Notes under the pieces: generated by a model | The model's input: the letters and a program-made list of their open reading frames with translations, nothing else | Database searches by the model: none | What the model was told of the DNA's origin: nothing | Source: a virus | Taxonomy: Duplodnaviria; Heunggongvirae; Uroviricota; Caudoviricetes | DNA: 34,621 bases | Strand: one strand, 5' to 3' | IMG/VR virus record: IMGVR_UViG_2778261697_000003 | Part shown: positions 1,165-34,621 of the stretch, piece after piece | How the letters are laid out: every line of letters starts with the position of its first letter | Numbering within the stretch: the first letter of the stretch is position 1 | Made by a program: the position numbers and the translations under genes

Positions 1165-1224
1165 TCCTCACGCTCCATAAACGACAAAACCGCCCGCAGG
1201 CGGTTTCACATAAAACATTTTGCA

Positions 1225-3211: not shown

Positions 3212-3220
3212 CAGGGCCTC

Positions 3221-3550
3221 CTATGCCACGACCTGTTCAAAATCTGCCGTTATGGTTACCCACAGCGCCCCCACGCTTGCCGACCATTTACGACAAACCA
3301 CCCTGATCGGCTTCCAGTCATAAGGTGGCGTCCACTGAAATGCGCGGACGCCACCGTGCCGTTCCAGAAAGGCTTTTAAAGATGGGTGTTCACATTTACG
3401 AACACGTATCGTCACGCTGTAAGTCGACAACTGGTTATTCAGTCCCGCCGCACGACGCTGTTCATAACCATCGCCCAGCTTCACTGTCACCACTTTCGGC
3501 TCTGATACCACATTCATATCCGGGCGCACTTTCCAGTGAAACGTCTCCAT
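3221..3550 (-). CDS. M: Minor tail protein M
   Basis: 109 aa, METFHWKVRPDMNVVSEPKVV...FEQVVA, aligns along its length with lambda gpM (109 aa) as recalled. Confidence 0.85.
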   Translation of the reverse strand: METFHWKVRPDMNVVSEPKVVTVKLGDGYEQRRAAGLNNQLSTYSVTIRVRKCEHPSLKAFLERHGGVRAFQWTPPYDWKPIRVVCRKWSASVGALWVTITADFEQVVA

Positions 3551-6500: not shown

Positions 6501-6624
6501 GGGCAGAAGACCGTTCTGCATCGCTGGCGGCACCATTCAGAAGGTTTTTGATACGGGGAATTTCATTTTTAAACTCTGCCGCATCAATCCCCAAATCAAT
6601 GACCAGGTTGGCTATCTGGTCCAT
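3550..6624 (-). CDS. H: Tail tape measure protein H
   Basis: About 1024 aa, long coiled-coil and Gln/Ala-rich; C-terminus ...INNDGTNGQIGPAALKVVYD... resembles the lambda gpH C-terminus. Start chosen at MDQIANLVIDLGIDAAEF (6622-6624), which aligns with the lambda gpH N-terminus; the ORF track's upstream Met at 6654 is the alternative. Confidence 0.85.
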   Translation of the reverse strand: MDQIANLVIDLGIDAAEFKNEIPRIKNLLNGAASDAERSSARMQRFMERQTQAARQTTQAASSAATAASVHAQTVEKNAQAHERMAREVEKTCQRMEALGQKMREEQAQAMALAEAQDKAAAAFYRQIDSVKQASAGLQELQRIQQQIRQARNSGGIGQQDYLALISEVTAKTRVLTQAEEEATRQKVAFIRQLKEQATRQNLSSSELLRAKAAQLGVSSAAEVYIRKMEQAGKATHSLGLKSAAARQEIGVLIGELARGNLGALRGSGITLANRAGWIDTLMSPKGMMLGGVIGGIAAAVYGLGKAWYDGQKEGEEFNRQLSLTGHYAGVTAGQLWTLSRAISGNGITQHAAAGALAQVVGSGAFRGNDIGMVARAAAQMERSVGQSVSDTINQFKRLKDDPVNAAKALDNELHFLTATQLEQIRVLGDQGRSSDAARIAMSALAEETGRRTADIDNNLNALGSTLKYLSDLWSRFWDAAMNIGREDSLDEQIAALQEKVSRAKRLPWTASSSQVEYDQQRLNDLQEKKRQKDLQDAKEQAERNYQEQQKRRNAENAALNRMNETEAARHQREIARINAMQYADQAVRDAAIQRENERYEKALASGKKKTRETRNDEATRLLLQYSQQQAQVEGQIAAARQSAGIATEKMTEAHKQLLALQQRISDLDGKKLTADEKSVLARKDELIQALTLLDVKQQELQKQTALNELKKKTIQLTSQLAEEERAQRQQHDLDIATVGMGDQQRQRYQVQLSLRQKYQQQLEQLRRDSEQKGTYNTDDYRKAEQALTESLNRQLNENRRYWQQLEIAQGNWKNGAMRAFQNFTADADNAAGTAEQMLTAAFNSAGNALATFCTTGKLNFKSFTASLLSDLAKIMAQMSMMQAVKGIGSAFGWGSAATASVTPNADGGVYQSADLSRYSGTVVNRPTFFAFAKGAGVMGEAGPEAILPLRRGADGKLGVVADIGGSGMAMFAPQYNIEINNDGTNGQIGPAALKVVYDLGKKAAADFMQQQSRDGGRLSGAYR

Positions 6625-6946
6625 AACGCACACCTCCGGAAATACCTTCCCCAAGATGCATCAGTTCTTCGTCCGTTCGCTCCGGTATCCCGTTCTCTTC
6701 CGGTAAAAGGCTGAAATCAGCCACCGCAGCATCACTGCTGCCGGACACCATTCTCACGATCAATGCCTTCAGCGAGGCAAACTGCGCATCCATCCACACA
6801 TCACTGAAGCTCTGCATCCGGAAATAATCGCCCCACTCACCAAGCTCAGTGGCCGACATTTCCGACAGCATCCGCCGCCAGTCTGCCCGCCGGAACTCCC
6901 GGGCAAGCCGCATGACAAACTGCATTTCCCGCGTCAGGACTTTTCC
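6596..6946 (-). CDS. T: T portion of the G-T tail assembly chaperone, expected to be made only as a G-T fusion by -1 ribosomal frameshift
   Basis: -1 frame relative to G, open through the G 3' end and continuing to a stop at 6596-6598; candidate slip heptamer GGAAAAG at 6940-6946 (minus strand); conserved G-T arrangement upstream of the tape measure gene. Confidence 0.6.
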   Translation of the reverse strand, partial: GKVLTREMQFVMRLAREFRRADWRRMLSEMSATELGEWGDYFRMQSFSDVWMDAQFASLKALIVRMVSGSSDAAVADFSLLPEENGIPERTDEELMHLGEGISGGVRYGPDSQPGH

Positions 6947-9801: not shown

Positions 9802-11760
9802 TTACGCCGTACATTTCACCAGACCGCGGTGATCAACTGGCGCGACACCGGCGTCAATACGCACTTTCGTTGTCACGCCATCCACACTGAAGCCCTCCAT
9901 CTGATCAATATATGGCGTATCCACACCGTTGAGATAAGCCACTTCAATCGTATCGGAGCCTTTTGACGCAGCCAGGTAGAAGGTGGTCTGGCTGTTATCA
10001 TCAAGACGAGGCTCTGCAATAACGGTCGCAAAATCTTTCACCGGGTTAATAATACCGGCGTTAATGTCAGCCCCCTTGACACTTGAGGAGCGAATGACCT
10101 GGTTAGCAACAGATTCCATCGCCGTCGGTACCAGTACGAACGCAGGACGAATATTCAGATGACGCTCCCCCTCTTTCTGAACGCGCATCAACTGGCGGGC
10201 TTTATCCAGCGATGCCACGTCCATTGCAGCGCTCTCCAGTACGTTTGCATGTTTCGCTTTATCGAACAGGCTTACATTATCTGTGGAGATTTTCGGGTTA
10301 GACGTCAGAATGGCATAAACCAGATCGGCAATAGTGGATTTCGCCGCACGGCCCAGCTTCATCGGGACATCGGTCAGCATATTCAGATCATCATTGATAA
10401 TGGCCTGACGGGTGATACTGAACAGCTCGCCATAGGTCGCCAGTGCAATAGTGGCCTGTTTATCTCCGGTGGTGACGTATTTATATTCCGCCCCTTCACG
10501 CACCTGACGCAGAGCACTGAAGCCCCCCATACCCACACGATGGGCAATTTTAAAATCAGACAACTGGCCTTTCCGCGTCCACTGTTCATAGGTTTCAGGG
10601 GCATCTTCCCAGCCCTGCAGAATGGCTTTGTTCGCAACATCCAGCAGAATATTACCGAAGTCAGACGTACTGTGTGTGAACGCCGCACCGACCATCTGCA
10701 TCGGGTTATAACTGGAAACCCCAATACCCCGTTCAATCAGTGACATACGGGCATATTCACGCAGGGTCATCCCGTTGTAGACATTATCACGTTCGGTTTT
10801 TTCAAATCCGGCACGCGCCATCAGCGCCTGGCGGATCCCGTCCCCCACAAAATTACCGTTACCGGCATAAATATGAGCCGGGGTATTTTTATTGGATGGC
10901 GTGGACTCTCGCCCCATCTCGTTCAACAGCTTCTCGCGGGCCTGCTCCAGCGAACACTCAGGATCGGCAAGGCACTGAGCCTGCAGCGCCTGATAACGCC
11001 CGCCAAACATGGCAAACAGATCATTAATACCGTTTACACGCGCTTTTTGCTCTGCCAGTACCTGCGCACGGATGCTGTTTTCATCCACCACGGGTGCTGC
11101 TGCCTGCACTGGCGTCCGGGGGGCTGCTGGTTCATCATCCGGTACGCGTGGAGCACTGTTGCGTGGCGGAGTAATCATGTTTCGAATAGATTCCGGCATC
11201 TTTTTAAATTCCTCTGTACGTTTTGACTGAATACATGCCATTGCCTTAACGGCTGGCGTTACCTGGTCAGCAAATCCATGAGCCAGACATTCGGCTCCGG
11301 ACATCCAGGTCTCATCCGCCAGCATGGCAGCAATTTCATCGGTGGTTTTCCCGGTTTTCTGTGCATAAGCGGGTAAGAGAACCGCCTCAACTTTATCGAG
11401 CAGGTCGGCATAGGTGCGCATGTCCTCCGCATCACCGCCCGTAAAGCCAAATGGTTTATGAATCATCATGAAAGTGTTTTCCGGCATAATGACCGGGTTT
11501 CCCACCATCGCAATGACCGACGCCATTGATGCCGCCACTCCGTCGACATAAACGGTAATGGACGCACCATGTGTTTTCAGTGCATTAAAAATGGCGATGC
11601 CTTCAAAGACATCGCCACCCGGTGAATTGATATGGAGATTAATGTGGGTGATATCGCCCAGTGCATTCAGATCACTGATAAACTGCTTCGCCGTAACACC
11701 CCAGAAACCAATCTCGTCATAAATATAAATATCCGCGTCACTCTGATGACCAGCCTGCAT
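9802..11760 (-). CDS. Fused prohead protease (ClpP/S49-like), scaffold and major capsid protein
   Basis: Start at MQAGHQSDADIYIYDEIGFWG (11758-11760), 14 nt after the portal stop; N-terminal ClpP-like motifs (INSPGGDVFEG, GVAASMASVIA); Ala/Pro/Gln-rich linker; C-terminal about 300 aa HK97-fold-like capsid region. Confidence 0.7.
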   Translation of the reverse strand: MQAGHQSDADIYIYDEIGFWGVTAKQFISDLNALGDITHINLHINSPGGDVFEGIAIFNALKTHGASITVYVDGVAASMASVIAMVGNPVIMPENTFMMIHKPFGFTGGDAEDMRTYADLLDKVEAVLLPAYAQKTGKTTDEIAAMLADETWMSGAECLAHGFADQVTPAVKAMACIQSKRTEEFKKMPESIRNMITPPRNSAPRVPDDEPAAPRTPVQAAAPVVDENSIRAQVLAEQKARVNGINDLFAMFGGRYQALQAQCLADPECSLEQAREKLLNEMGRESTPSNKNTPAHIYAGNGNFVGDGIRQALMARAGFEKTERDNVYNGMTLREYARMSLIERGIGVSSYNPMQMVGAAFTHSTSDFGNILLDVANKAILQGWEDAPETYEQWTRKGQLSDFKIAHRVGMGGFSALRQVREGAEYKYVTTGDKQATIALATYGELFSITRQAIINDDLNMLTDVPMKLGRAAKSTIADLVYAILTSNPKISTDNVSLFDKAKHANVLESAAMDVASLDKARQLMRVQKEGERHLNIRPAFVLVPTAMESVANQVIRSSSVKGADINAGIINPVKDFATVIAEPRLDDNSQTTFYLAASKGSDTIEVAYLNGVDTPYIDQMEGFSVDGVTTKVRIDAGVAPVDHRGLVKCTA

Positions 11761-11773
11761 CCTGAACCAGGAA

Positions 11774-13282
11774 TTATTCTTCGGACTGGTTGTTGGTGTG
11801 CTGCGGCTCCTGTCGTTTCGTTGCGGCACTGCTACCTCCTTTATCACTGGCCGGATCGGTATCAAATACCAGATCCAGCTTGCGGTTTTCATCAATTTCG
11901 GCCTTGCGCCGACGTTTGACATCATCCGGATTACGACCACCAGCACGTACCCAGTCTGATTCTGTCGCCGCTCCACCACGAATCTGGATTTTCCAGGCCT
12001 CAGCCTCCTTAACAGGGTCAATCCACGGCATCACCGGTCCGGAATACACCGCGGTATACAGTGAAGAACGGTCAAGATCGCGGGGTAGCCTGATAACACC
12101 GGATGCCACAGCCTGTTTCAGCCAGGCACGGTACATCGGGCGGGTGACGGCACCAATAAACCAGTCCTGCAGGATCAGGTAGCCATCAGTGGATTCAACC
12201 AGCTCCTGACGCTGGGCGCTGTAAGTGCCGTTATAGTTGCGCGCAGTACTGGAAAAACTCAGACGACTGCCAGCCGCCACTGCACGCAACTGACCATTAC
12301 GAAAAGTTTCAAGATTAGGATTGGGGCGATCCGACTTCACCATTCCGATTTCTTCGCCGGGTTTCAGATCGTCGTAAATAATGCCTGGCTGAATGGTAAG
12401 CTCGCGTTCCTTATCCTTGCTGCCATTACCATCCGGTTCATAGCTCTGTCCGTCGCCTTTGCGGATGTACATCCCCAGAGCAGCGGCGATCCTTGCTGCA
12501 GTCAGCTCAGAATCTTCATACTCTTTCAGGGCACTGAGGCGGATCAACACACCGGACAACAAAGACGTCCCGCGCATCTGGTGCAGACGGCGAACAAATT
12601 TAAGATGCAGCATTCGCTCTGCATCCACTTCTTTGGTTTCCATCTGCCGTCCGGATACGGGACGGCTTTTATACACCAGATATTTTTCGGGACGCCCCCA
12701 GTCATCAACAAACACGCCCTGATTCAGCCTGTTGCTCTCATCACTGGTCATGGGAATAAAGTCCGGCTCGAGCGCCTCCAGCCAGAAATGAACACCGGCA
12801 GAAGGCGTCAGGCTGTTTATGCGCCCGGAAACCATCTGGGCAAACACCTCACCATCGCGCAGCCAGGTACGCAGCATCAGACGTTCCAGCATCGGACGGG
12901 TAAACTGCCCGGTGACTTCCGGGCTGACAGACCATTCACTCCATCGGGTGCGAATCTCCGCAGCCAGGTCACGGGCAATGGCTCCATTGCGTAATACCGG
13001 ATGTGGCTCGACAATAATGCCGTTTTTCCCCACCACCCGTTCTTCCAGCTTGTCAAATACACCAATAACCAGATCGTGGTTGTTATCAAGGTAACGGGCC
13101 TGCTCACGTAACGACACGGCCCCGTACTGGCTTAACTGGTCGGCAGTTCGGTTTTCCCGCCGGGCTTTGTGTGTCCGCGTCGTTTTTACGGCCTCATAAG
13201 CCTGGATCACCGCACGGGAACGCAGCCTTGCCGCTTTCCATCCTGGTGAAAAAACGCCAATCACATCATCAAGAATTGCCAT
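11774..13282 (-). CDS. Portal protein (lambda gpB family)
   Basis: About 502 aa from MAILDDVIGVFSPGWK (13280-13282, TGATG overlap with the preceding gene); follows the terminase and W-like gene as in lambda. Confidence 0.8.
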   Translation of the reverse strand: MAILDDVIGVFSPGWKAARLRSRAVIQAYEAVKTTRTHKARRENRTADQLSQYGAVSLREQARYLDNNHDLVIGVFDKLEERVVGKNGIIVEPHPVLRNGAIARDLAAEIRTRWSEWSVSPEVTGQFTRPMLERLMLRTWLRDGEVFAQMVSGRINSLTPSAGVHFWLEALEPDFIPMTSDESNRLNQGVFVDDWGRPEKYLVYKSRPVSGRQMETKEVDAERMLHLKFVRRLHQMRGTSLLSGVLIRLSALKEYEDSELTAARIAAALGMYIRKGDGQSYEPDGNGSKDKERELTIQPGIIYDDLKPGEEIGMVKSDRPNPNLETFRNGQLRAVAAGSRLSFSSTARNYNGTYSAQRQELVESTDGYLILQDWFIGAVTRPMYRAWLKQAVASGVIRLPRDLDRSSLYTAVYSGPVMPWIDPVKEAEAWKIQIRGGAATESDWVRAGGRNPDDVKRRRKAEIDENRKLDLVFDTDPASDKGGSSAATKRQEPQHTNNQSEE

Positions 13283-13500
13283 CAGAACCTCGCCAGCCGG
13301 TACCCGGGATGCCCCCGTCGTCGTGTAATCAGAGCCGCAAGGCGGCGCTCCCACTCCTGCCGTCCCTGCCGGATCTCAGATAAGTTTTCCATGGTCATCT
13401 GCTGACCATTAAAGGTGACGGATTTTCCGTCCAGCACCGCCATTTCAGCTTCCGTATAACGCTGAATCATGGCTTCGATATCATTCTGGTTCATAACCAT
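13282..13500 (-). CDS. W: Head-tail joining / head completion protein (gpW-like)
   Basis: 72 aa; lies between the terminase large subunit and portal as lambda W does; C-terminal ...RRRGHPGY resembles the lambda gpW C-terminus. Confidence 0.6.
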   Translation of the reverse strand: MVMNQNDIEAMIQRYTEAEMAVLDGKSVTFNGQQMTMENLSEIRQGRQEWERRLAALITRRRGHPGYRLARF

Positions 13501-15593
13501 CCTCCGGAAGTCAGCCAGGGGTTAACATCGTCAGTTACTGTTTTCTTCCGTTTTTGTTTTTTAACAGGCGTGGATACCGGTTCCGGTGTGGGTGACGGTT
13601 CGGTACTGTCCGGGACACACTCCAGCCAGGTTTCCCGGCTCGCCCACTCCGGTGCATCCGGCCAGCGGATCTTTTCGTATCCATGCAGAATGACCAGAGC
13701 CTCGGCATACACCATCAGGTCAAAAGCTTCGTTGGCACCGCGACCCGGCTTACTCCATTTCCCGTCACTGCTCCGCTCTTCATACGTCAGTTCGTCGTAA
13801 AACCAGCTCCCCAGCCAGTCAGGGAAATGCACATAGCCTGGACCTGGCGAGTCACGCCATAACGCGTTATTCACCCGGTCTTTCAGGGCATCCGTCTGAA
13901 GAAGCCAGAGCGGCACATCACCTGCGGCCTGCGCCCGGCGGCCCGTTCGTCCGGTGTTATCAGGGAATGTACGGCTGATCAGTTTTGCGCGCCGGATGCT
14001 GTCACCCTTAAACAGGTAAATACGTTTACCAAGGCCATCACGACGGCAACGACGCCAGAATTTATAGGCATTATCAGTGACCCCGTCTTCACCGCCGGAG
14101 TCCACCGCCATTGCCATCAGTCGCATTTGTTGAGAAGGATCGGAGGCCAGCGGCCAGCTTTTATGAAAAACATCCGTCAGCAGGACATCCCAGTCTTCCG
14201 GATAGCTGGCCGGATCAATTCGCTGGCTCTCCCCGTCTCTGTCACCGCGCAATGACTGCGTGATGTTGTAACGATCAATAATCCAGCGTTCGCCACGGCT
14301 GCCATAGCCCGTTACCTGAACCACAAAACGGCGATGACGTCCCGCCTGCACATCCACTGTCGCCACAAGGAAATTAACGCCATCCGGCACACTGCGGGAA
14401 GGAACTGGCTCTGCCCGCTGCTCAAGCAGTTCACTTTTTCGTTGCTCCATGCTGGCGCGGGGAAGATAAGGTAATCCCCAGTCGGTATTGATAACCGTCT
14501 TGAGTGTTTCTTCACTTCCGGTTGTCTCGTATTCCTGTTCTGCAGTAAGCAGTTTGTAAACGAGTTGCGAGAGTGTCTGGTAAGCAGCTGCCGGACCCTC
14601 CATCCAGAATGACGCAATACGTGAGCGTCGGGGATCACCATAACGACTGCCATCCGCATTGATGGATTCACCATCCCGCAACCAGACCCCACGTCCGTTC
14701 AGCTCACGTTTTTGTTCAGGCATAATCCGTCCTGAACAGGAAGGACACTGAATATAAGCCGCCTCACTTGCCAGCACGGGATCGGCAATATCACGGAAAC
14801 CAGCAACCACATCGCCGCAGGGCTGAAAATACTCACCACAGTGTGGACAGGGCCAGTACCAGCGACGGCGATCGCCACGGTTATAGAGCGACAGTATCCC
14901 CGTGGTTGGTGGAGCCTCATGCGGTGAAGTCCGTCGCCATTTCACATCCTTCACATCCCTGCCGGGGGAACTCTCCACCAGCGTCATACCACTGGACATA
15001 AATGTTGTGGTACGTTTTGAGGCAAGAGAGAAAGCATCCCCCTCGCCATCAATATCTTCCGGAAAACGGTCATAATCCGTCAGCGCGACGCATTTATAAT
15101 CTGATGAGGACATGATATTGACTGACGGCCAGCCGATTTTCAGGTAGTTACCAGCAAGGAATGTTCTGTCATAAACGTTGTTGTCATTTTTGTTCGGACT
15201 CAGGCGACTGACCACTTCCGGGCTGACGCGAAACGTTCTGGCAAGTCGTTTTTTGGAGTGTTCGCGGGCTTTTTCCTCCGTCATCTGAATGATCAGCATA
15301 TCCGCAGGATCGCAAATCACGTTGTAAATCACCCAGCCGTCAATCAGGCCGATAGTCTTGCCGGTTCGTGCCGGGCCAACAAATATCACTGCGTCGTATT
15401 CACGCGAGGCCAGGCAGTTCATCGGCTCAATAACATACGGTGCCACCAGCGGATCCCACGGGACTGAGTTCCCGGCCCCCATGGGCACCCGCATATATTG
15501 AGCAACGGCATCAGCAACCTGCATTCGTCTCGGTGCGCGAAGGATATAACCTGAATCGGTTCGTGCTGCCTTTGCGGTTTCCTGATTCAGCAT
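13491..15593 (-). CDS. Terminase large subunit (lambda gpA family)
   Basis: 700 aa; Walker A-like VGPARTGKT; CPHCGEYFQP zinc-ribbon-like motif as in lambda gpA (CPHCGEE); position after Nu1. Confidence 0.9.
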   Translation of the reverse strand: MLNQETAKAARTDSGYILRAPRRMQVADAVAQYMRVPMGAGNSVPWDPLVAPYVIEPMNCLASREYDAVIFVGPARTGKTIGLIDGWVIYNVICDPADMLIIQMTEEKAREHSKKRLARTFRVSPEVVSRLSPNKNDNNVYDRTFLAGNYLKIGWPSVNIMSSSDYKCVALTDYDRFPEDIDGEGDAFSLASKRTTTFMSSGMTLVESSPGRDVKDVKWRRTSPHEAPPTTGILSLYNRGDRRRWYWPCPHCGEYFQPCGDVVAGFRDIADPVLASEAAYIQCPSCSGRIMPEQKRELNGRGVWLRDGESINADGSRYGDPRRSRIASFWMEGPAAAYQTLSQLVYKLLTAEQEYETTGSEETLKTVINTDWGLPYLPRASMEQRKSELLEQRAEPVPSRSVPDGVNFLVATVDVQAGRHRRFVVQVTGYGSRGERWIIDRYNITQSLRGDRDGESQRIDPASYPEDWDVLLTDVFHKSWPLASDPSQQMRLMAMAVDSGGEDGVTDNAYKFWRRCRRDGLGKRIYLFKGDSIRRAKLISRTFPDNTGRTGRRAQAAGDVPLWLLQTDALKDRVNNALWRDSPGPGYVHFPDWLGSWFYDELTYEERSSDGKWSKPGRGANEAFDLMVYAEALVILHGYEKIRWPDAPEWASRETWLECVPDSTEPSPTPEPVSTPVKKQKRKKTVTDDVNPWLTSGGWL

Positions 15594-16273: not shown

Positions 16274-16769
16274 CGTGGCAGGCCACCCCACCGGGAGGAC
16301 CCGTCAGCCTGACAGCTCTGACGAACGTCTGATACAACGCCTTGCATGAATGGCATCGGGATAATCCAGAAAGGCATAGCATCGTGCCCACAAGAATCTG
16401 TGTAAGTGTCCTGTTTCTTCCACCCCCGCACAGGACTGGCGAGCATGAGGGACAAACCCGCGAACCATAAACGCGGTAAAAACCCAGTGTGCATCGTTTT
16501 TGATTATTCCCTCACACTCGCGCAGAAGGAGTTCCCCGTCGGGCTACGGTCTCTGTTAATACGGGAATACGGCGACGATACAGCGCAGTTAAAAGGGTAA
16601 AGGACAGATAGAGCGGTTTATTTCATTCCACAGGATTCTGAGTGTCCCCAACTTCCTCCAATAGTCTGAGCGTACACCTATATAGTTTTAATTTTCATCA
16701 ATCCATTTAACTATCGTTTAATTGTTGTCACATAGGATTCTGCCGTTTTTAACAATGCAGGATAATAAG

Positions 16770-17063
16770 ATGAAAAAAATGTTGTTTTCTGCCGCGCTGG
16801 CAATGCTTATTACAGGATGTGCTCAACAGACGTTTACTGTTGGAAACAAACCGACAGCAGTAACACCAAAGGAAACCATCACCCATCATTTCTTCGTTTC
16901 GGGAATTGGGCAGAAGAAAACTGTCGATGCAGCAAAAATTTGTGGTGGTGCAGAAAATGTGGTTAAAACAGAAACCCAGCAAACATTCGTAAATGGATTG
17001 CTCGGTTTCATCACTTTTGGCATTTATACTCCGCTGGAAGCACGGGTATATTGCTCACAATAA
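16770..17063 (+). CDS. bor: Bor outer-membrane lipoprotein (serum-resistance-associated)
   Basis: MKKMLFSAALAMLITGCAQQTFTV...LEARVYCSQ, near-identical to lambda Bor as recalled; lipobox LITGC; antisense to late genes next to Rz as in lambda. Confidence 0.9.
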   Translation: MKKMLFSAALAMLITGCAQQTFTVGNKPTAVTPKETITHHFFVSGIGQKKTVDAAKICGGAENVVKTETQQTFVNGLLGFITFGIYTPLEARVYCSQ

Positions 17064-18813: not shown

Positions 18814-19809
18814 ATGTTTGAGCAGCGTAAAGCCCTGTATGCGCAACTGGAACAAGCACGCAATTCAAAAGTATTATGCTATGTAACAGGTGATAGACCA
18901 AACCAAGAAGCTCAAATCAGCGCTGATGTATTCGATCTGTTCGTCAATCATCTTGATGTGATAGGTGATGTTCAAAAAATTAGCCTCGTGCTCTATACGC
19001 GAGGCGGCGACACTTTAACAGCATGGAGCCTTGTAAACCTGCTTCGTCAGTTTTGTAAAGAACTCGAAATCATAATCCCATCAAAATGCCATAGTTCTGG
19101 GACGATAATGTGCCTTGGCGCGAACAACTTGGTTATGACCAAGCAGGCAACCTTAGGGCCAATCGATCCAAGTGTGAATACACCACTTAACCCTTCGGTC
19201 ATAATCAATGGGCAGCCACTTCAACTTCCAGTCAGTGTTGAAGAAATCAATGGCTATCTTGAAGTAGTTAAGCATGATTTGAGTATCAAAGATGATGCCT
19301 CACTTGCACAGATCCTCCTTGCATTAAGTGAAAAGGTTCATCCCTTGGTACTTGGAAAAGTCTATCGAGCTAAAGCGCAGATTCAAATGCTCGCAAGAAA
19401 ACTACTGTCTCACCAACTCACTGATAGTGAAAGCATTGAGAAAATTGTAAGTTTCCTTTGTAGTGATTCTGGTAGCCATGACTACACTATAAATAGGATT
19501 GAAGCGGTAAACGATTTAGGTCTTACGGTGGAAAAACCAGATGAGCACCTTTACGGTCTGATCAAAGAAATTTATGAAGATTTCAAAACTGAGATGCATC
19601 TGGGTGAACCTTTTGACCCAAATGCTATCTTAGGAACAGTTAACCAGGCATCGTACGTATCTGTCAGAAGCATTTTAGAGGCTCCAGACACGTTTTCATA
19701 TCAATTCCGCACTGAGGGGATGTTACAGCGTTTGCAAGTTCCAGGCGTCCCAGGTCAGTTCGGCATAAATCATAACCTTATCTCAGAGGGGTGGGCTCGA
19801 CATGGATAA
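18814..19809 (+). CDS. ClpP/crotonase-fold serine-peptidase-like protein (SDH/S49-like) of unknown function; moron antisense to the late operon
   Basis: 331 aa; AAGGA Shine-Dalgarno 7 nt upstream; N-terminal ...KVLCYVTGDRP...ISLVLYTRGGDTLTAWSLVNLLRQF...IIPSKCHSSGTIMCLGANNLVM...LGPIDPS... resembles the ClpP/SppA core (GG oxyanion region, candidate Ser nucleophile in HSSGT); C-terminal about 200 aa unassigned. Lies between S and Q. Confidence 0.5.
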   Translation: MFEQRKALYAQLEQARNSKVLCYVTGDRPNQEAQISADVFDLFVNHLDVIGDVQKISLVLYTRGGDTLTAWSLVNLLRQFCKELEIIIPSKCHSSGTIMCLGANNLVMTKQATLGPIDPSVNTPLNPSVIINGQPLQLPVSVEEINGYLEVVKHDLSIKDDASLAQILLALSEKVHPLVLGKVYRAKAQIQMLARKLLSHQLTDSESIEKIVSFLCSDSGSHDYTINRIEAVNDLGLTVEKPDEHLYGLIKEIYEDFKTEMHLGEPFDPNAILGTVNQASYVSVRSILEAPDTFSYQFRTEGMLQRLQVPGVPGQFGINHNLISEGWARHG

Positions 19810-28411: not shown

Positions 28412-28948
28412 ATGTCATTTATTAAAACTTTTTCCGGGAAGCATTTTTATTATGACAGGATAAATAAAGACGACATCGATATTAACGATATCGCGGTTTC
28501 CCTTTCAAATATCTGTCGCTTTGCCGGTCATCTTTCGCACTTCTACAGCGTCGCCCAACATGCGGTGCTTTGCAGCCAACTGGTACCGCAGGAATTTGCT
28601 TTTGAAGCGTTAATGCATGATGCAACAGAAGCGTATTGTCAGGACATCCCCGCTCCACTGAAACGCCTTCTTCCTGACTATAAACAGATGGAAGAAAAAA
28701 TAGACGCCGTAATCCGTGAGAAATACAGGTTACCCCCGGTTATGAGTACGCCCGTGAAATATGCCGATCTCATCATGCTGGCAACCGAACGCCGCGATCT
28801 CGGGCTTGATGATGGCTCTTTCTGGCCTGTACTGGAAGGCATCCCGGCAACAGAGATGTTCAGCGTGATTCCACTGGCACCGGGCCATGCCTACGGGATG
28901 TTTATGGAACGCTTTAACGAATTATCGGAGTTACGCAAATGCGCATGA
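28412..28948 (+). CDS. yfdR: HD-domain phosphohydrolase (YfdR-like 5'-deoxynucleotidase)
   Basis: 178 aa from MSFIKTFSGKHFYY...; HD-motif region ...AQHAVLCSQL...ALMHDATEAY...; same length as E. coli YfdR. Confidence 0.65.
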   Translation: MSFIKTFSGKHFYYDRINKDDIDINDIAVSLSNICRFAGHLSHFYSVAQHAVLCSQLVPQEFAFEALMHDATEAYCQDIPAPLKRLLPDYKQMEEKIDAVIREKYRLPPVMSTPVKYADLIMLATERRDLGLDDGSFWPVLEGIPATEMFSVIPLAPGHAYGMFMERFNELSELRKCA

Positions 28949-28982
28949 GTCTTTCAACCGAACAATCACTGGAGGGGCAGCA

Positions 28983-29177
28983 ATGAACAACTTAATGACA
29001 ACAAAACAAGTCGCCGAATTCTGTGGCGTTTCAATATCGACGGTGCTTCGCTGGAACAGCGTAAACAGGAGGACTGGCCAGAAATACAGACCAGATTTTC
29101 CAGATCCTGATATTAAATCCTGCCCAAATAAATGGGCATCACGCAAGATATACAGGTTTGCTGGAGTTATTGAGTAA
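28983..29177 (+). CDS. Excisionase / AlpA-family small DNA-binding protein
   Basis: 64 aa from MNNLMTTKQVAEFCGVSISTVLRW... (HTH); last gene of the early-left operon, adjacent to the int-proximal region. Confidence 0.5.
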   Translation: MNNLMTTKQVAEFCGVSISTVLRWNSVNRRTGQKYRPDFPDPDIKSCPNKWASRKIYRFAGVIE

Positions 29178-29210: not shown

Positions 29211-29389
29211 CTATGACACAGAGCCAAATCTAATGGGCTACCCATCCTGTGTCAGGGGCTGACTTTTAATGCCATAATTCACCGCCAGACAAAAACTGTA
29301 TTGCATTGCACGAGAGGCGCAGCCTTGTTAGTTCGAGTGTTTTTACCTTGCTAGCCTCCACAGCTCGCACGCCCCGACACTCGTCACTT

Positions 29390-32300
29390 TCACACGCAGC
29401 GCCTTCGAGAATATTCATTTAATCGCTGGTAACGAACATCTTGCTCCAGTTGTGGAGCAGCTTGAACAATTTGAAGCAAGCATTGCCCCAACTCTCGAGG
29501 CCCCCACTGTTGGTCGGCAATCACAGAACTCAGCAAGGATAGAGCGTCCGCAGGATATCGACTGCAAATATCCGATTTGAGCAAAAGGCGAACGTCGTAG
29601 CTCGGGTGTTCGAGCGGTTGCAGCCAGTCCCGCACCACAGCCAAAGCAGCCGGAAATTCACCTCGGGCAGCAATCACCATACGAGTCAACGATTCGGATA
29701 TGCGCGGGGTGGCCAAGTTACGGGACTTTGGCCAGACCTGTTGCCAGAATGGCTGGACACGATTTTTCCAATAGTCCTCGCGCTGATCGCCGGCACCTTC
29801 AAGTGCCTGGTATAACGCCTGCGCGGCCCCCTCCAGACCTTCTTGTGGAAGAGCACTAATTGCCGTTCTGAACTCCTCCACGGTATATCCATCAGTAGGG
29901 CCCAATGCTGCATAAGTCAGGAAAGTAGCGAATTGCTGCCGGTGCTCGCCAAGATCAGAATAGTGATTGGCGCTCTCCAAAAAATCTGACTTGAAAGCTA
30001 TCAGCAACGGTTCATACAGGCGTGGCGACCAGAGGAAGCCTTCCCACACAGCTTTTGCTTCGATGGGATTACTCCAAGCAAACAAGGGCAATAGGTACTG
30101 TTCGGTCCAAGGTCGATCTACACGAAAAAATGCGATCAGCCGCGACCCCAGCAACACCCGACCATGGCGGAATTGCTCTATCTGTACATTACACAATTTG
30201 GTGAAAAGTGGTTTCAATTCAGCAGTAAGCAAATCATTGTCATTCGGGTTCTGTTTGAACCATAGGGTGATCAGTGATTGCGTGACATGCCCAATTGGAT
30301 GATTGATCGCTGTAGAAACAGGATTATAGGTCTCAATTCCGTTTCGAATAGTGCTAGACTCTGGGCTTGTTTCTATCATCAGAAGCCGACTACAAAGGGC
30401 CAGTAGAATCTTCTCGTGGCAGAGGATGGACTTCGAAGCCTCCTCCATCCACCAAGTGACAGCGTGTGAAATCTCCTGAAGTACTGCGTCAGGCATGTCA
30501 AGCACCAACGGTGCGGCGTACCGCCACGAACGCAAAATCATCCCTGGTTCAGCCCAAGTCTGCAGAGCTTCACACCACCGACCAATAGGCCACACATCAT
30601 CTTGTGATAGTTTACGTAACGCATACAGACTGTGAAAAAAGCGCGTACGGCAAACATCACTCCAAGTGTCTTCATAGAAAGGCAGTCTTTCTGGCATAGG
30701 CTCTGCGAGCCATTGTACTAGTTCCTGCCACTTACGGGGCGCAATGTCGACATCTAGACTCTCCTCGAAGTCTGGATCACCGGTTCCGCTCATCCAGTGA
30801 GAGAATTCATCACGCTCGTTGGTAGCCAGTTGCCATTTTGGGTATGCTGTGGATATTTCCGTCAAACGTGTAGCCGCAGACTCTCCCAAAACGAGGCCCG
30901 CTCCCCTGAGCTTCGCTAGACACAACCAGACGGAATGAGCCACCAAATAATGCCACCTGTCTGCTTCCAAATTATCTTGGTACATCTCGCGCGGAGGCCC
31001 CGCCAAGATAGCAGTTTCCAGACGCTCTTGTGCAATTCCTGTCAGATGTCGCCCCTGCAAAACAAACAGTCTGAATACCTCTCGCCCAGTATCCGTGGCC
31101 CACAACCACCATGAACCGTCCTCCAACAACCAATTAACCCACCGCTCAGGTGGTATACAGTTGTCTTGGCTTGCGGCAAACAGGGCCAGACGTTTGAAGG
31201 TGGGATATGGCAACTCAAACCAATTCTGAGCAATGCGCATAGCCCGATCGCTGTCTTTAGCTCGAACGGCTAACCATGAATCTCGAAGTAATTCAATCAG
31301 GCTCACCCAATCGCGGAACCCCCGGTTCTGCCTGTGCGGAGTGATGGACGGCAAATCCCAATGCGAGCGGTCGTGACGATCGTCGGCCTCTCCCAACTCC
31401 CGCAACAAGTCCAGTGCATCACGCAACAACTGCTGAAAATCTTCCAACAGGTATGGCAAGGACGATTTCCATGAATCGTCAGCAAGGTCGAACAGGGTTG
31501 AATGTACGTAATCAGCAGTCAGCACCAGCTCCCAGTCCACCAATTGCTTGATTCGCAAGGGCTCATCAGTGCTGCTCGAATCGTCTTCACGATAGCGAAA
31601 CGGCCGCCTCAACATCACCTTGGGAGAAAGTAACTCACGTAACTCCAAGCGCAATGTAGTCGTCAAGCCTTCATTCTTTAAGCGGTTTTGCCAACGATAC
31701 AGATCTGGGTTCTGCAATGGCGATTTCACACGACCACTAAGCAGAAGCCGCCATAAAGTAAACATTGGTGGACTAGGAATAGCCTTGGGGGAATGCAAGA
31801 GAATTTCATCCAACTCAGAAGTCTTGCGCTCCCGCACCAGTGCTGCTAAGCGATCTAGTTCGCTCTCAATCAGAAGCATCCAACGGTCGTGTATCTGTCC
31901 GCCGCGTGCAGCAATCCATATGATCAACCTAGGGTCGCCCAGATAACGAACTAGCCAACGGGCTATATGGGACATTACGTCATCCCATTTGCTAACACTG
32001 ACACATCCAGAAGCCAGCGACATCTGCGGGGCTAGCTCATAGGGCGCAGGACGCTGAACCAGACTGAATCGGAGTTTCGGGTCAATTTCGGCATGCGGAG
32101 ATACACAAAAGCGTGGCAGATCGCTGTATTGAAATCGTTCGTCCGAGAAAGCTTTCAATAACCAATCCAGCGGCGGTGCAGGATTGAGTTCCGCAAAACA
32201 TTTTGCTGGTAAACCTGACTTATCTGATAATGCCCACATCATCCGACCAACGAAATCGTCCTGTCGTGTGCTATCCTGCGGGCGGGCCAGAGCATGTTTG

Positions 32301-33217
32301 ACGACAATGGCTTCTTTGCCCTGTATACCATCGCGATAAATATCTGCCCAAGCGCACAATGTATAGTGCATCGCTGAATGATCATTGGTGTCCGCCGGTA
32401 CGGTGTAAAGGATGGGTGTGACCCCCTTGGCCTCCCACTCAATAGATTTCCGGTGCTCCTGCCCCGGCTTACATTCTCCTAGTGCCCATACTTGCGGCGT
32501 GACTTCACCGAGCCTCCGATCTGCTGCCAGTGCGTCCATCATATAGCGTAGCACCGGGTCGTTGATGCTGTAGCCCACGAAGCAGACCACGTAGTTACGG
32601 AACAAGTCACTTACAAAACGGGCAGCCCAGCGTTCCGTGAGATAGGCTAAGCCAAAGTCGCCACTAGTGACAACCAGACGATTCAGAGCAGTATCGTCTG
32701 TCTTTTCCGGTAACAACCCATGCAGGTAGACTATTCCGTCCCAGCGACTGTTTTTTGGAATTGGCAACATCGGCGCTACATAAGCCTGAAACGCTTGAGT
32801 CGTGCGTTTAGCTGCCACATGAAATAAGCGGTCAAAGTTGGTAGTAACTAACCGAAGGGCACCATCGCGGCTACGCGCCAAACGCAACAGCGCCGTCTGA
32901 GTATCAGTTGCGCCCCTATTGTGAAGTTTTGGCTTAAGGGCTTGTTCCAGCGCGCGACGGACGGCTATACGCTGTCCCGGTAAGCGCCGTTCCAACAAAT
33001 CCAATGTGGCGTCGAACTGACCTCGATTGAAGGCCTCACGCTCAATTTCTGAAAGTGTTGTTCCGTTCAACTGGTAAATCCGCTCTACCAATCCCTCAAA
33101 ACCTGGCAAATCAGCAGGGTAGGAAATGCCAGCCCCGCAGAAGAACACCACGCGGCCTTCCTCGTGCGCCTGCAAAAGTTCATCCGGAATATCAGGGCCG
33201 TTGGTGATAAATTGCAT
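29390..33217 (-). CDS. Large SIR2-domain protein (N-terminal SIR2-like NAD-binding domain plus about 950-aa helical C-terminal region); candidate defence-associated sirtuin (DSR-like)
   Basis: 1275 aa; AGGAGG Shine-Dalgarno upstream of ATG 33217; SIR2-family motifs in order: VVFFCGAGISYPADLP (res 23-38), LVTTNFDRLFH (res 123-133), IVYLHGLL (res 162-169), VCFVGYSINDP (res 211-221); the remainder is Leu/Trp-rich and helical-looking; located between xis and int. Confidence 0.6.
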   Translation of the reverse strand: MQFITNGPDIPDELLQAHEEGRVVFFCGAGISYPADLPGFEGLVERIYQLNGTTLSEIEREAFNRGQFDATLDLLERRLPGQRIAVRRALEQALKPKLHNRGATDTQTALLRLARSRDGALRLVTTNFDRLFHVAAKRTTQAFQAYVAPMLPIPKNSRWDGIVYLHGLLPEKTDDTALNRLVVTSGDFGLAYLTERWAARFVSDLFRNYVVCFVGYSINDPVLRYMMDALAADRRLGEVTPQVWALGECKPGQEHRKSIEWEAKGVTPILYTVPADTNDHSAMHYTLCAWADIYRDGIQGKEAIVVKHALARPQDSTRQDDFVGRMMWALSDKSGLPAKCFAELNPAPPLDWLLKAFSDERFQYSDLPRFCVSPHAEIDPKLRFSLVQRPAPYELAPQMSLASGCVSVSKWDDVMSHIARWLVRYLGDPRLIIWIAARGGQIHDRWMLLIESELDRLAALVRERKTSELDEILLHSPKAIPSPPMFTLWRLLLSGRVKSPLQNPDLYRWQNRLKNEGLTTTLRLELRELLSPKVMLRRPFRYREDDSSSTDEPLRIKQLVDWELVLTADYVHSTLFDLADDSWKSSLPYLLEDFQQLLRDALDLLRELGEADDRHDRSHWDLPSITPHRQNRGFRDWVSLIELLRDSWLAVRAKDSDRAMRIAQNWFELPYPTFKRLALFAASQDNCIPPERWVNWLLEDGSWWLWATDTGREVFRLFVLQGRHLTGIAQERLETAILAGPPREMYQDNLEADRWHYLVAHSVWLCLAKLRGAGLVLGESAATRLTEISTAYPKWQLATNERDEFSHWMSGTGDPDFEESLDVDIAPRKWQELVQWLAEPMPERLPFYEDTWSDVCRTRFFHSLYALRKLSQDDVWPIGRWCEALQTWAEPGMILRSWRYAAPLVLDMPDAVLQEISHAVTWWMEEASKSILCHEKILLALCSRLLMIETSPESSTIRNGIETYNPVSTAINHPIGHVTQSLITLWFKQNPNDNDLLTAELKPLFTKLCNVQIEQFRHGRVLLGSRLIAFFRVDRPWTEQYLLPLFAWSNPIEAKAVWEGFLWSPRLYEPLLIAFKSDFLESANHYSDLGEHRQQFATFLTYAALGPTDGYTVEEFRTAISALPQEGLEGAAQALYQALEGAGDQREDYWKNRVQPFWQQVWPKSRNLATPRISESLTRMVIAARGEFPAALAVVRDWLQPLEHPSYDVRLLLKSDICSRYPADALSLLSSVIADQQWGPRELGQCLLQIVQAAPQLEQDVRYQRLNEYSRRRCV

Positions 33218-33403
33218 TCCTTTACCTCCTATCCAATGTGTATGTTCATTCGAGCAAATTAGGGGACAATGGGGCTATAGATGATTAGACCGACTATGCA
33301 AACACTGCTTCCTTGCAAGCTACCCTGATCTAGCCAAATCACAATGTCCGCTCTCCTATCAAAGCGAACGGCTAGATTTGATTGTATTATGGCTACTCAA
33401 GGC

Positions 33404-34621
33404 TCAGTTAGAGTCTGAGCAAGTAATTATCGATTCAATCCTCTCCCACCATGCCAGGTAAGCTTTACGCTGTTCTTCTAGATAATCGCTCTTATCATAA
33501 ACTTGCCATACCCCCGGCAGTTTATGACCGAGCATTATTTCTGCAATATGAGGCGCAGTAAGATCAGAAAAGTTTGTTCGTGCTGTGCGCCTCAAATCAT
33601 GAAGAGACCAATGAGGGAATTGATACCCCAAACGCCGCCATGCGTACTGCATTAAATTGTAAGGCAGCGACTGCAATGATGTCCGACCAACGGGTTCCCT
33701 GCTTCCTTCCTTAGTAAAAAGCATATCGGAACCATTGTTCATAGAGATAGCGTACTTTATAAGCTCTTCAACCGGTTCAATAATGGGCCGCTTTAGCGGT
33801 TCGCCTGTTATCTCCCCAGTCTTATGTCGTTCTGGTGGTACAGTCCATACTTTATTAATGAAATCAAAATCGTCCACCCGGGCGGTAATTAGCTCTGAAC
33901 TACGGCAACCAAAATGCAGCAATAGTTTAATGAAGGCCCGGTATTTAGGAACCATTCGAGAACCATCGATCGCAGCATAAAGGATTTTAATTTCATCATG
34001 TGTCAGAAACCGTTTCTTCTGACCTTTACGGATATCCATATCTTTACCCGTGATATCCGACAGCGGGCGAGTTTCAATGAGCTTTCTCTTATACGCCCAG
34101 ACATGGGCCTGCTTTGCGTTAATTAGCAATCGGTCTGCTATTGCTGGAGTCTTAGTGCTAAGAGGCTCCAGGACTTCTAACCAATCATGCAATGTAGCTG
34201 CATCGTGAGGGATATTCCCGATTTTAGAAAACAGGTGCAGCTCAAACGAGCGGAGTATCTGTTCAGAACCTTTTTTATTTTTTACACAATATGCTTCATA
34301 CCAGGCACGGATCACAGACTCTACCGTCATGGCTTCAGTAGCTTTTCGTTTTTCAGCCTGCTTGACCAATCGTGGATTACGGTTTGACTCGAGTTCACCA
34401 CGAAGACGGATAACTTCTTCTCTGGCCTCTTTTAATCCAGTTGCCGGGTAAGTCCCGATATCAAGACGCTCACCTTTCCCTGCCCATTGATAACGATATT
34501 GGAACACTACGCGACCTTTCGGTGATACTCTGACAGACAGACCATCACGATCGGATTTAACCAAAACCTTATCACGTTCCTTTCCAACGACTGAACGCAA
34601 CCACGCATCAGACAGCGCCAT
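33404..34621 (-). CDS. int: Tyrosine recombinase / integrase (P4-type)
   Basis: 405 aa with its ATG at the last 3 nt of the window (MALSDAWLRSV...); C-terminal catalytic region ...HDLRRTARTNFSDL...HKLPGVWQVYDKSDYLEEQ... Confidence 0.85.
   Translation of the reverse strand: MALSDAWLRSVVGKERDKVLVKSDRDGLSVRVSPKGRVVFQYRYQWAGKGERLDIGTYPATGLKEAREEVIRLRGELESNRNPRLVKQAEKRKATEAMTVESVIRAWYEAYCVKNKKGSEQILRSFELHLFSKIGNIPHDAATLHDWLEVLEPLSTKTPAIADRLLINAKQAHVWAYKRKLIETRPLSDITGKDMDIRKGQKKRFLTHDEIKILYAAIDGSRMVPKYRAFIKLLLHFGCRSSELITARVDDFDFINKVWTVPPERHKTGEITGEPLKRPIIEPVEELIKYAISMNNGSDMLFTKEGSREPVGRTSLQSLPYNLMQYAWRRLGYQFPHWSLHDLRRTARTNFSDLTAPHIAEIMLGHKLPGVWQVYDKSDYLEEQRKAYLAWWERIESIITCSDSN

What the first reader, a model, noticed from the sequence alone, without database searches (positions are those of the whole stretch)
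29390..33217. 1275-aa SIR2-domain protein inserted between xis and int: candidate single-gene NAD-depleting anti-phage system
The N-terminal roughly 300 aa carry the ordered SIR2-family motifs GAGIS, TTNFD, YLHG and FVGYS, with candidate catalytic Asn127 and His166. The remaining roughly 950 aa look helical and repeat-like. Established knowledge: SIR2 domains fused to large sensor regions form defence-associated sirtuins (DSR1/DSR2) and related systems that deplete NAD+ on infection. The gene has its own strong Shine-Dalgarno sequence and a 186-bp upstream region, and it sits in the int-xis junction where lambdoid phages carry cargo. Whether it belongs to DSR1, DSR2 or an undescribed family cannot be decided from the sequence alone.
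Basis: partly seen in the sequence, partly recalled or inferred. Interest (0 to 1): 0.8.

Follow-up and report, generated by a model that had tools for sequence, protein, structure and literature searches.

The report
Known prophage-borne Dsr1 anti-phage sirtuin

Summary
A 1275-aa ORF lies on the minus strand at 29390..33217. It carries GAGIS, TTNFD (N127), YLHG (H166) and FVGYS at the stated positions, a strong Shine-Dalgarno site and a 186-bp upstream spacer. It sits between an excisionase gene (28983..29177, +) and a tyrosine integrase gene (33404..34621, -) of a lambdoid prophage.

The open question (DSR1, DSR2 or new) is settled: it is Dsr1.
- It matches the NCBIfam equivalog NF041818 "Dsr1" end to end (2049.8 bits, cutoff 1400) and the PADLOC Dsr1 model (2682.8 bits). 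No Dsr2 model hits.
- The gene is 100% identical in DNA to PGAP-annotated dsr1 (WP_069067679.1) in three complete E. coli genomes.
- dsr1 is present in 76 of 5426 complete E. coli genomes.
- N127 and H166 are invariant in homologues down to 36% identity. H166 aligns with the His of KomC that was mutated in a solved SIR2 NADase structure.

Published work shows that Dsr1 proteins restrict phages and lower NAD+, and that E. coli Dsr1 is triggered by a phage major capsid protein through an Avs7-type helical sensor.

The only additions are contextual. The xis-int slot is a variable cargo site: dsr1, a dGTPase, an OLD/AriA-like ATPase or unknown genes. E. coli dsr1 alleles are mosaic in the promoter plus SIR2 half. 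Novelty: already known. Interest: low.

The parts
29390..33217 (-). dsr1 coding sequence (1275 aa plus stop)
   Evidence: ORF. NCBIfam NF041818 Dsr1 equivalog 2049.8 bits. PADLOC Dsr1 PDLC02183 2682.8 bits. 100% nt identity to PGAP-annotated dsr1 (WP_069067679.1) with the same gene ends.
32318..33217 (-). N-terminal SIR2 (NADase effector) domain, about aa 1-300. The N127 codon is 32837..32839 and the H166 codon is 32720..32722.
   Evidence: Pfam SIR2_2 matches aa 123-269. Motif positions. G28, G30, T125, T126, N127, D129, H166, G167, G215 and Y216 are invariant in 32 sequences at 36-55% identity. H166 aligns with KomC H146, the residue changed in PDB 9xvc 'KomC(H146N)'.
29393..32317 (-). C-terminal all-alpha sensor region, aa 301-1275
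   Evidence: No Pfam domain. The AF2 model is all helices, pLDDT 67.7. Foldseek against PDB gives only generic alpha-solenoids, TM<=0.23. 2719 representative proteins match it at E<=0.001, and nearly all of the best 150 are either ~1190-1340 aa with the match starting around residue 210-505 (mostly near 300) or shorter proteins that look truncated. The literature describes it as an Avs7-type bilobed sensor that detects phage major capsid protein.
33218..33403 (-). 186-bp int-dsr1 spacer. It holds the Shine-Dalgarno site AGGAGGT (33224..33230) and a terminator-like hairpin just after int (33346..33369). The dsr1 promoter presumably lies at 33231..33345.
   Evidence: Sequence. Hairpin. The consensus scan found no sigma-70 match in the spacer. 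Srikant et al. obtained defence from ECOR17 dsr1 cloned with 300 bp of upstream DNA.
28983..29177 (+). excisionase (xis), left border of the cargo slot
   Evidence: phrog_1553 excisionase, E 2.5e-35. 92-100% aa identity next to every cargo variant examined. Not annotated by PGAP in EJN001.
33404..34621 (-). tyrosine integrase (P4-type arm-binding N-terminus), right border of the cargo slot. The prophage sits next to yjjG in matching genomes.
   Evidence: Pfam domains; phrog_1. Genome context. Present in 700 of 5426 complete E. coli genomes.
29235..33403 (.). variable cargo slot between xis and int, occupied here by dsr1 alone
   Evidence: Homology to prophages with other cargo stops at window ~29228-29234 on the left and ~33347-33420 on the right. 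Other occupants are listed.

Best explanation
The gene is dsr1 (defence-associated sirtuin 1), a self-contained anti-phage protein carried as lysogenic-conversion cargo between xis and int of a lambdoid prophage.

Shown here:
- It is an intact, full-length member of the curated Dsr1 family.
- Its SIR2 NAD+-binding and catalytic motifs are conserved.
- It has an all-helical ~975-aa C-terminal region.
- It has no partner gene.
- It occupies a slot that holds other defence genes in sister prophages.

Inferred from published work on other Dsr1 proteins:
- In the lysogen the protein is made from its own promoter and stays inactive.
- When a sensitive phage infects, the C-terminal Avs7-type sensor binds a phage structural protein. 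For E. coli Dsr1 tested with the Drexlerviridae phage ZL19, this was the major capsid protein.
- Binding switches on the N-terminal SIR2 domain, which hydrolyses NAD+ to ADP-ribose and nicotinamide.
- The fall in NAD+ stops phage replication. The result is either growth arrest or death, or, as reported for the Dsr1 tested in Bacillus, a transient NAD+ dip without culture collapse.
- This protects the lysogen, and so the prophage, from superinfection.
- Phages can escape with NAD+-rebuilding pathways (NARP1, NARP3) or, for T4, with the early gene nrdC.5.
For: - Family identity: NCBIfam Dsr1 equivalog 2049.8 bits against a 1400 cutoff, covering 1-1271 of the protein and 1-1263/1263 of the model. 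PADLOC Dsr1 2682.8 bits, 1-1275/1275. The exact protein is in NCBI as 'MULTISPECIES: anti-phage defense-associated sirtuin Dsr1 [Enterobacteriaceae]' on 103 contigs. The DNA is 100% identical to annotated dsr1 in EJN001, EBJ001 and F5.
- Active site: N127 and H166 are invariant in 30 close homologues and in 32 distant ones. H166 aligns with the His of KomC that was mutated in PDB 9xvc.
- Selection: dN/dS is 0.15 overall, 0.08 in the SIR2 part and 0.23 in the sensor, against the O55:H7 allele. The gene is under purifying selection and is not decaying.
- Single-gene status: the slot between xis and int holds only this gene.
- Mechanism from papers: NAD+ depletion and defence by DSR1. ECOR17 dsr1 with its native promoter blocks T4 lacking nrdC.5. 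EcDsr1 has an Avs7-type sensor and the ZL19 major capsid protein is its unique trigger. NARP1 and NARP3 overcome DSR1.
Against: - Nothing in the sequence argues against it.
- No experiment exists for this exact allele as far as I could find.
- Its identity to the tested EcDsr1 (WP_029488749.1) and to the ECOR17 protein could not be measured, because those sequences were not retrievable here.
- The SIR2 half and the promoter of this allele differ from the commoner E. coli allele (84-88% and 72% nt), so expression and inhibitor sensitivity may differ.
- The consensus scan found no sigma-70 promoter in the spacer.
- The Avs7-type fold of the sensor was not confirmed here. The model is of medium confidence and matched only generic alpha-solenoids.
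- The outcome (abortive or non-abortive) and the trigger may vary between alleles and phages.
Confidence: 0.93

Rival explanations
1. It belongs to another SIR2 defence family (DSR2, Thoeris ThsA, SIR2-HerA, SIR2-pAgo, Avs5) and not to Dsr1.
For: Weak SIR2-only matches to ThsA (E 2.7e-4), LmuA (1.1e-4) and generic SIR2 models. All these families share the SIR2_2-type domain.
Against: These matches cover only aa ~13-230 and score under 20 bits, against 2682.8 bits for Dsr1. No Dsr2 model hits at E<=1. No HerA, ThsB/TIR, Argonaute or STAND NTPase domain is present in the protein or in a neighbouring gene. The NCBIfam equivalog cutoff is exceeded by about 650 bits.
Confidence: 0.01
2. It is a genuine Dsr1, but this allele responds to a different phage cue than the Drexlerviridae major capsid protein, or protects without killing the cell. 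The published trigger and outcome would then not transfer directly.
For: [quoted passage not shown] ECOR17 Dsr1 acts on a T4 mutant, a very different phage. The Dsr1 tested in Bacillus gave a transient NAD+ drop without culture collapse. This allele differs from the O55:H7 allele at 75 of 1275 residues, 48 of them in the sensor. A 2026 paper calls DSR1 'poorly characterized'.
Against: The sensor is 94-98% identical in DNA among E. coli alleles and 74-82% identical in protein across genera outside E. coli, which suggests a conserved ligand. The major capsid protein was the unique hit in the published screen.
Confidence: 0.2
3. It is a silent or decaying remnant with no current function, or a housekeeping protein deacetylase.
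For: No consensus promoter was found in the 186-bp spacer. The gene lies in prophages that are sometimes degraded.
Against: The 3828-nt frame is intact, dN/dS is 0.15, all catalytic motifs are retained, and the Shine-Dalgarno site is strong. The full-length gene is kept even where the surrounding prophage is degraded. SIR2_2-type domains of this clade act as NADases in the solved defence proteins.
Confidence: 0.03

Closest known systems
Dsr1 (defence-associated sirtuin 1): named by Gao et al. 2020 (not readable here; cited), with E. coli examples EcDsr1 WP_029488749.1 and ECOR17 Dsr1. NCBIfam NF041818; PADLOC PDLC02183.
   Same: Same length, same domain order (N-terminal SIR2, ~975-aa helical sensor) and same single-gene organisation. 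End-to-end match to the curated models. The identical protein is already named Dsr1 in RefSeq.
   Different: Nothing at family level. This allele group (window, EJN001, FDAARGOS_1287, S3) has a diverged promoter region and SIR2 half compared with the commoner O55/O157-type allele. Its identity to the experimentally tested proteins could not be measured.
DSR2 (Bacillus subtilis; senses the phage tail tube protein; cryo-EM structures published)
   Same: N-terminal SIR2 NADase fused to a large alpha-helical sensor. Single-gene NAD+-depleting defence (papers listed).
   Different: No sequence match to PADLOC Dsr2 models, and DSR2 chains were not found by the sequence searches of the PDB. The published trigger differs: tail tube protein for DSR2, major capsid protein for Dsr1.
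Avs7 (STAND NTPase defence protein; Nature 2026, PMC13581612)
   Same: According to the paper, Avs7 and Dsr1 share a homologous bilobed sensor that recognises phage major capsid protein.
   Different: Dsr1 has no STAND NTPase module, and its effector is SIR2 rather than the nuclease and other effectors of Avs7. The sensor homology was not reproduced here: the 150 best sensor homologues all have Dsr1 architecture or look like fragments of it.
KomC and other stand-alone SIR2 NADases with solved structures (PDB 8zsf, 9xvc, 9v0g)
   Same: The SIR2 core aligns over aa 12-245, with GAG, TTN-D and HG motifs matched. The His mutated in KomC(H146N) aligns with H166.
   Different: Only marginal sequence similarity (E 0.003-0.004). 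These are ~264-278-aa proteins without a fused sensor.

Membership tests
Dsr1 | Full-length match to the curated family model above its trusted cutoff | tested here: met
   NCBIfam NF041818 (equivalog) 2049.8 bits against a 1400 cutoff, model positions 1-1263/1263. PADLOC Dsr1 PDLC02183 2682.8 bits, 1-1275/1275.
Dsr1 | N-terminal SIR2 domain with the catalytic Asn and His and the NAD+-binding glycine motif | tested here: met
   Pfam SIR2_2, E 1.9e-22. GAGIS, TTNFD (N127) and YLHG (H166) are present and invariant in homologues at 36-55% identity. H166 aligns with KomC H146.
Dsr1 | Large C-terminal alpha-helical sensor with no STAND NTPase module | tested here: met
   No NTPase or any other Pfam domain in aa 270-1275. 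The AF2 model of aa 301-1275 is all-helical and resembles alpha-solenoids only generically.
Dsr1 | Sensor homologous to the Avs7 bilobed sensor | tested here: inconclusive
   The claim comes from PMC13581612. Here the model has pTM 0.44 with no specific PDB match, and the listed sensor homologues were all Dsr1-type or fragments. Avs7 sequences and structures were not available for comparison.
Dsr1 | Single-gene system with no obligatory partner gene | tested here: met
   dsr1 is the only gene in the xis-int slot. Its neighbours xis and int also occur with unrelated cargo.
Dsr1 | Phage restriction with NAD+ depletion that depends on the SIR2 active site | not testable with these tools
   Shown for other Dsr1 proteins. 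Not shown for this allele.
DSR2 | Match to DSR2 family models or sensor | tested here: not met
   No Dsr2 model among the PADLOC hits at E<=1. No DSR2 chain among the PDB sequence hits at E<=1.
Thoeris ThsA / SIR2-HerA / SIR2-pAgo | Partner gene (ThsB TIR protein, HerA ATPase or short Argonaute) or a SLOG domain | tested here: not met
   Only weak SIR2-core matches (ThsA E 2.7e-4). The neighbouring genes are xis, int and yfdR.

The most novel reading that the evidence does not exclude
The most novel reading left open concerns the context, not the gene. First, the xis-int junction of yjjG-integrating lambdoid prophages may be a defence-gene exchange slot whose uncharacterised occupants (the 413-aa protein of strain CE10, the pair of small proteins of strain 95-3192) are new defence systems. 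Second, the swap of the promoter plus SIR2 half between E. coli dsr1 alleles, with the sensor kept, may be effector-module replacement driven by phage inhibitors of the SIR2 domain. A related open point: a prophage carrying a capsid-sensing Dsr1 must keep its own major capsid protein from setting it off during induction.
Probability: 0.15. Interest if true: 0.4.

Novelty: already known. Interest (0 to 1): 0.1.

Why it matters
As a discovery it matters little. The gene is named by the standard NCBI annotation pipeline and by PADLOC, and it has published phenotypes and a published trigger. The value is practical: the window can be annotated as a lambdoid prophage with a Dsr1 superinfection-defence moron. 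It also gives a clean natural example of defence cargo in the xis-int slot. That slot could be mined in the ~620 other complete E. coli genomes that carry the same integrase but lack dsr1.

Tried and rejected
1. Structure check of the SIR2 domain. The model of aa 1-340, built on 45 close homologues, reached only pLDDT 44, so it was not used for fold search. I relied on sequence alignment to solved SIR2 NADases and on conservation instead.
2. Sensor model. pLDDT 67.7, pTM 0.44. Foldseek against PDB returned only karyopherin-like alpha-solenoids with TM 0.06-0.23, so there is no specific relative and the Avs7-type fold is not confirmed.
3. Profile search of the PDB sequences with the family alignment found only SIR2 cores.
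4. The exhaustive search with the sensor alone listed only Dsr1-architecture proteins and apparent fragments among the best 150. The link to Avs7 and to proteins with other effectors could therefore not be reproduced.
5. I tried to find the tested EcDsr1 accession WP_029488749.1 among the annotated E. coli alleles. It was not among the alleles inspected, so its identity to this protein is unknown.
6. Gao et al. 2020 is not held in the paper library under the PMC id I recalled, and the supplements of the 2026 paper are not held either.
7. The consensus scan found no sigma-70 promoter in the 186-bp spacer, so the promoter stays unassigned.
8. DSR2, ThsA, SIR2-HerA and Avs5 were considered and rejected.
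9. PADLOC found no other defence system among nine further ORFs from window 16.7-34.6 kb. The only hit among candidate cargo genes is a weak domain-level match of the KilA-N protein to PDC-S22.
Full report
**Observation.** The ORF exists exactly as described. It spans 29390..33217 on the minus strand, starts with ATG and encodes 1275 aa. The four motifs are at GAGIS 28-32, TTNFD 125-129, YLHG 164-167 and FVGYS 213-217; residue 127 is Asn and residue 166 is His. The gene starts 186 bp after the stop codon of the integrase gene. AGGAGGT lies six bases before the ATG. G+C content around the gene (0.50-0.53) does not stand out from the prophage.

**Domain content.** Pfam finds SIR2_2 at aa 123-269 (E 1.9e-22, 80.3 bits against a cutoff of 24.5) and nothing else in the protein. 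An AlphaFold2 model of aa 301-1275 consists only of helices (mean pLDDT 67.7, pTM 0.44).

**What it is.** Three independent libraries give the same answer.
- The NCBIfam equivalog model NF041818, "anti-phage defense-associated sirtuin Dsr1", matches residues 1-1271 over all 1263 model positions. The score is 2049.8 bits against a curated cutoff of 1400.
- The PADLOC Dsr1 model PDLC02183 matches 1-1275 of 1275 positions with 2682.8 bits. A second Dsr1 model gives 645 bits. The only other hits are SIR2-core matches below 20 bits (ThsA, LmuA, generic SIR2). No Dsr2 model appears at E<=1.
- PHROGs holds the family as phrog_15208, of unknown function, also matched end to end.

The DNA is 100% identical to genes annotated dsr1 (WP_069067679.1) in E. 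coli EJN001, EBJ001 and F5. dsr1 is found in 76 of 5426 complete E. coli genomes and never on a plasmid. The exact protein is in NCBI as [quoted passage not shown], seen on 103 contigs.

**Active site.** N127 and H166 are invariant in 30 homologues at 77-94% identity. The more telling test is a set of 32 proteins (the query plus 31 representatives) at only 36-55% identity to the query. There the invariant columns also include F25, F26, C27, G28, G30, I31, T125, T126, D129, G167, G215 and Y216. A sequence search of the PDB aligns aa 12-245 with the SIR2 NADase KomC (8zsf) and with a second SIR2 protein (9v0g). TTNFD falls on TTNYD and YLHG on KFHG. Counting along that alignment puts H166 opposite KomC H146. 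That residue is the one changed in the PDB entry named "KomC(H146N), a SIR2-domain NADase".

I could not add a structural superposition.

**The gene is maintained.** Against the O55:H7 CB9615 allele there are 235 nucleotide and 75 amino-acid differences. dN/dS is 0.15 overall, 0.08 in the SIR2 part and 0.23 in the sensor. Close homologues at 77-83% identity occur in Rahnella, Pectobacterium, Vibrio, Thauera, Ferrovum and others. An exhaustive search with the sensor alone finds 2719 representative proteins at E<=0.001. Nearly all of the best 150 are either ~1190-1340 aa with the sensor match starting around residue 210-505 (mostly near 300), or shorter proteins that look truncated. These fit the Dsr1 architecture.

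**Surroundings.** The window is a lambdoid siphovirus prophage.

| Feature | Window coordinates |
|---|---|
| Tape measure | 3550..6654 |
| Protease/major capsid fusion | 9802..12021 |
| Large terminase | 13491..15593 |
| bor/iss | 16722..17063 |
| Lysis genes, Q-type antiterminator, cI-like repressor | between these and the left arm |
| yfdP, yfdQ, yfdR | early-left arm, ending at 28948 |

Its structural and early genes are 96-98% identical to phages vB_EcoS-569R4, PhiR40_1 and mEp460.

The 64-aa product of 28983..29177 (+) matches phrog_1553 "excisionase" over its whole length (E 2.5e-35). Pfam gives it only sub-threshold helix-turn-helix hits, and PGAP leaves it unannotated. The 405-aa product of 33404..34621 (-) is a tyrosine integrase with a P4-type arm-binding domain. 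In every matching genome inspected the order is yfdR ... xis, dsr1, int, then the chromosomal gene yjjG. So dsr1 does lie between xis and int. It is on the same strand as int and convergent with xis.

A terminator-like hairpin follows int at 33369..33346. The consensus scan finds no sigma-70 site in the spacer, so the promoter is not assigned. Srikant et al. obtained defence from ECOR17 dsr1 cloned with 300 bp of its own upstream DNA.

**Is the position a cargo slot?** Yes.
- The same integrase (95-99% nt identity in 693 records, >=99% in 5) is present in 700 of 5426 complete genomes, but dsr1 in only 76.
- In four int-positive genomes without dsr1, the space between xis and int holds other genes:

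| Strain | Locus | Occupant of the slot | PADLOC result |
|---|---|---|---|
| CNR85I8 | L010 | dGTPase-family protein | dGTPase, E 3.5e-105 |
| ETEC1721 | L011 | 595-aa ATPase | AriA E 7.5e-57; OLD and GajA ~1e-23 |
| CE10 | L009 | 413-aa hypothetical protein | no hit |
| 95-3192 | L008 | two small hypothetical proteins | no hit |

- xis (92-100% aa identity) and int flank all of them. Homology to the window breaks at about 29228-29234 and 33347-33420.
- Sister prophages that use another integrase (at the tRNA-Thr/proA site) match the window only up to 28948-28954, the end of yfdR, and have no dsr1.

**How it most likely works.** What is shown here is family identity, intact catalytic motifs, an all-helical sensor, single-gene status and location in a defence-type cargo slot. 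The mechanism is taken from published work on other Dsr1 proteins.
- DSR1 cloned in B. subtilis protected against phage phi29 and lowered NAD+ transiently without culture collapse (Garb et al.).
- ECOR17 dsr1 blocks a T4 mutant, and the T4 gene nrdC.5 overcomes it (Srikant et al. 2022).
- The NAD+-rebuilding pathways NARP1 and NARP3 overcome DSR1.
- The C-terminal region of E. coli Dsr1 (WP_029488749.1) is homologous to the Avs7 sensor. In a screen of 73 genes of phage ZL19, the major capsid protein was the unique activator of EcDsr1-dependent cell death (Nature 2026, PMC13581612).

By inference, the window's protein waits inactive in the lysogen. It binds the capsid protein of a superinfecting phage through aa ~300-1275, and this switches on NAD+ hydrolysis at the N127/H166 site.

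Caveats:
- This exact allele is untested.
- I could not measure its identity to the tested proteins.
- A 2026 paper still calls DSR1 "poorly characterized".
- I could not reproduce the Avs7 link. Foldseek gave only generic alpha-solenoids with TM<=0.23.

**Comparison with known families.** The protein passes every sequence-level membership test for Dsr1 and fails those for DSR2, ThsA, SIR2-HerA and SIR2-pAgo. It works like DSR2 in outline (a SIR2 NADase fused to a helical sensor of a phage structural protein) but is not a member of that family.

**Additional finding.** E. coli dsr1 alleles are mosaic. Compared with the O55/O157-type allele, the window type is:
- only 72% identical in the int-dsr1 spacer;
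- 84-88% identical over the first ~1 kb of the gene (dS 0.61);
- 94-98% identical over the sensor (dS 0.10);
- 92-100% identical in int across 200-bp windows, about 96% overall.

A tract covering the promoter and the SIR2 domain has evidently been exchanged with a more distant Dsr1.

**Verdict.** The object is an already known, already annotated defence gene. Novelty: already known. Interest: about 0.1.

Noticed in passing
window 32229..33421, compared with L003, L006 and L007: E. coli dsr1 alleles are mosaic. The int-dsr1 spacer (72% nt) and the first ~1 kb of the gene (84-88% nt, dS 0.61) are much more diverged between the window-type and O55/O157-type alleles than the sensor part (94-98% nt, dS 0.10) or int (about 96%). 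This points to an exchanged promoter plus SIR2 module.
   Followed up: partly
window 29235..33403; L008 6900-7876, L009 6553-7794, L010 6381-7607, L011 5907-7694: The xis-int slot is a variable cargo site. The same integrase is in 700 of 5426 complete E. coli genomes, and dsr1 in 76. Other occupants seen are a dGTPase defence gene, an AriA/OLD/GajA-like ATPase, a 413-aa hypothetical protein (CE10) and two small hypothetical proteins (95-3192). The hypothetical proteins have no PADLOC hit and could be untested defence genes.
   Followed up: partly
window 28983..29177 (+): The excisionase gene is clear by PHROGs (phrog_1553, E 2.5e-35). It is below the Pfam thresholds and is left unannotated by PGAP in EJN001 and other RefSeq genomes.
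   Followed up: yes
window 18814..19809 (+): A 331-aa SDH-type Clp-fold serine proteinase gene (Pfam SDH_protease, E 1.5e-14) lies between the Q antiterminator and the lysis genes, on the opposite strand. It is in the lowest-GC part of the window (0.41-0.44). It looks like a moron of unknown role and has no PADLOC hit.
   Followed up: partly
window 16722..17063 (+): A bor/iss serum-resistance lipoprotein gene (Pfam Lambda_Bor, E 9.6e-31). This is a classical lambdoid moron, in a low-GC stretch.
   Followed up: yes
window 13491..15593 compared with L001 1-6204: In strains EJN001 and EBJ001, whose dsr1 is identical, the same prophage has its large terminase gene cut short. Next to the cut lies a second integrase followed by a helix-turn-helix regulator, Bro-N, Icd-like and primase genes, which looks like a P4-like satellite. 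In the window the terminase gene is intact, so the window comes from a strain with an uninterrupted prophage.
   Followed up: partly
P0016-P0134 (homologues of window 29393..33217): Dsr1 is unusually well conserved for a defence protein: 77-83% identity over the full length between E. coli and Rahnella, Vibrio, Thauera, Ferrovum, Halothiobacillus and others. This implies recent horizontal spread, strong constraint on the sensor, or both.
   Followed up: no
window 29245..29263 (+): A short GC-rich hairpin followed by a T-run on the + strand, about 70 bp after xis and inside the dsr1 3' flank. It looks like the terminator of the early-left (yfdPQR-xis) transcript. No matching terminator was found for dsr1 on the minus strand.
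   Followed up: no
phage record LC727881.1 (H1) 2049-5876: Only one of 50,697 deposited phage records carries dsr1: Stx2c-converting phage Stx2c_JNE082796, at 93.9% nt identity. No feature is annotated under the match.
   Followed up: no
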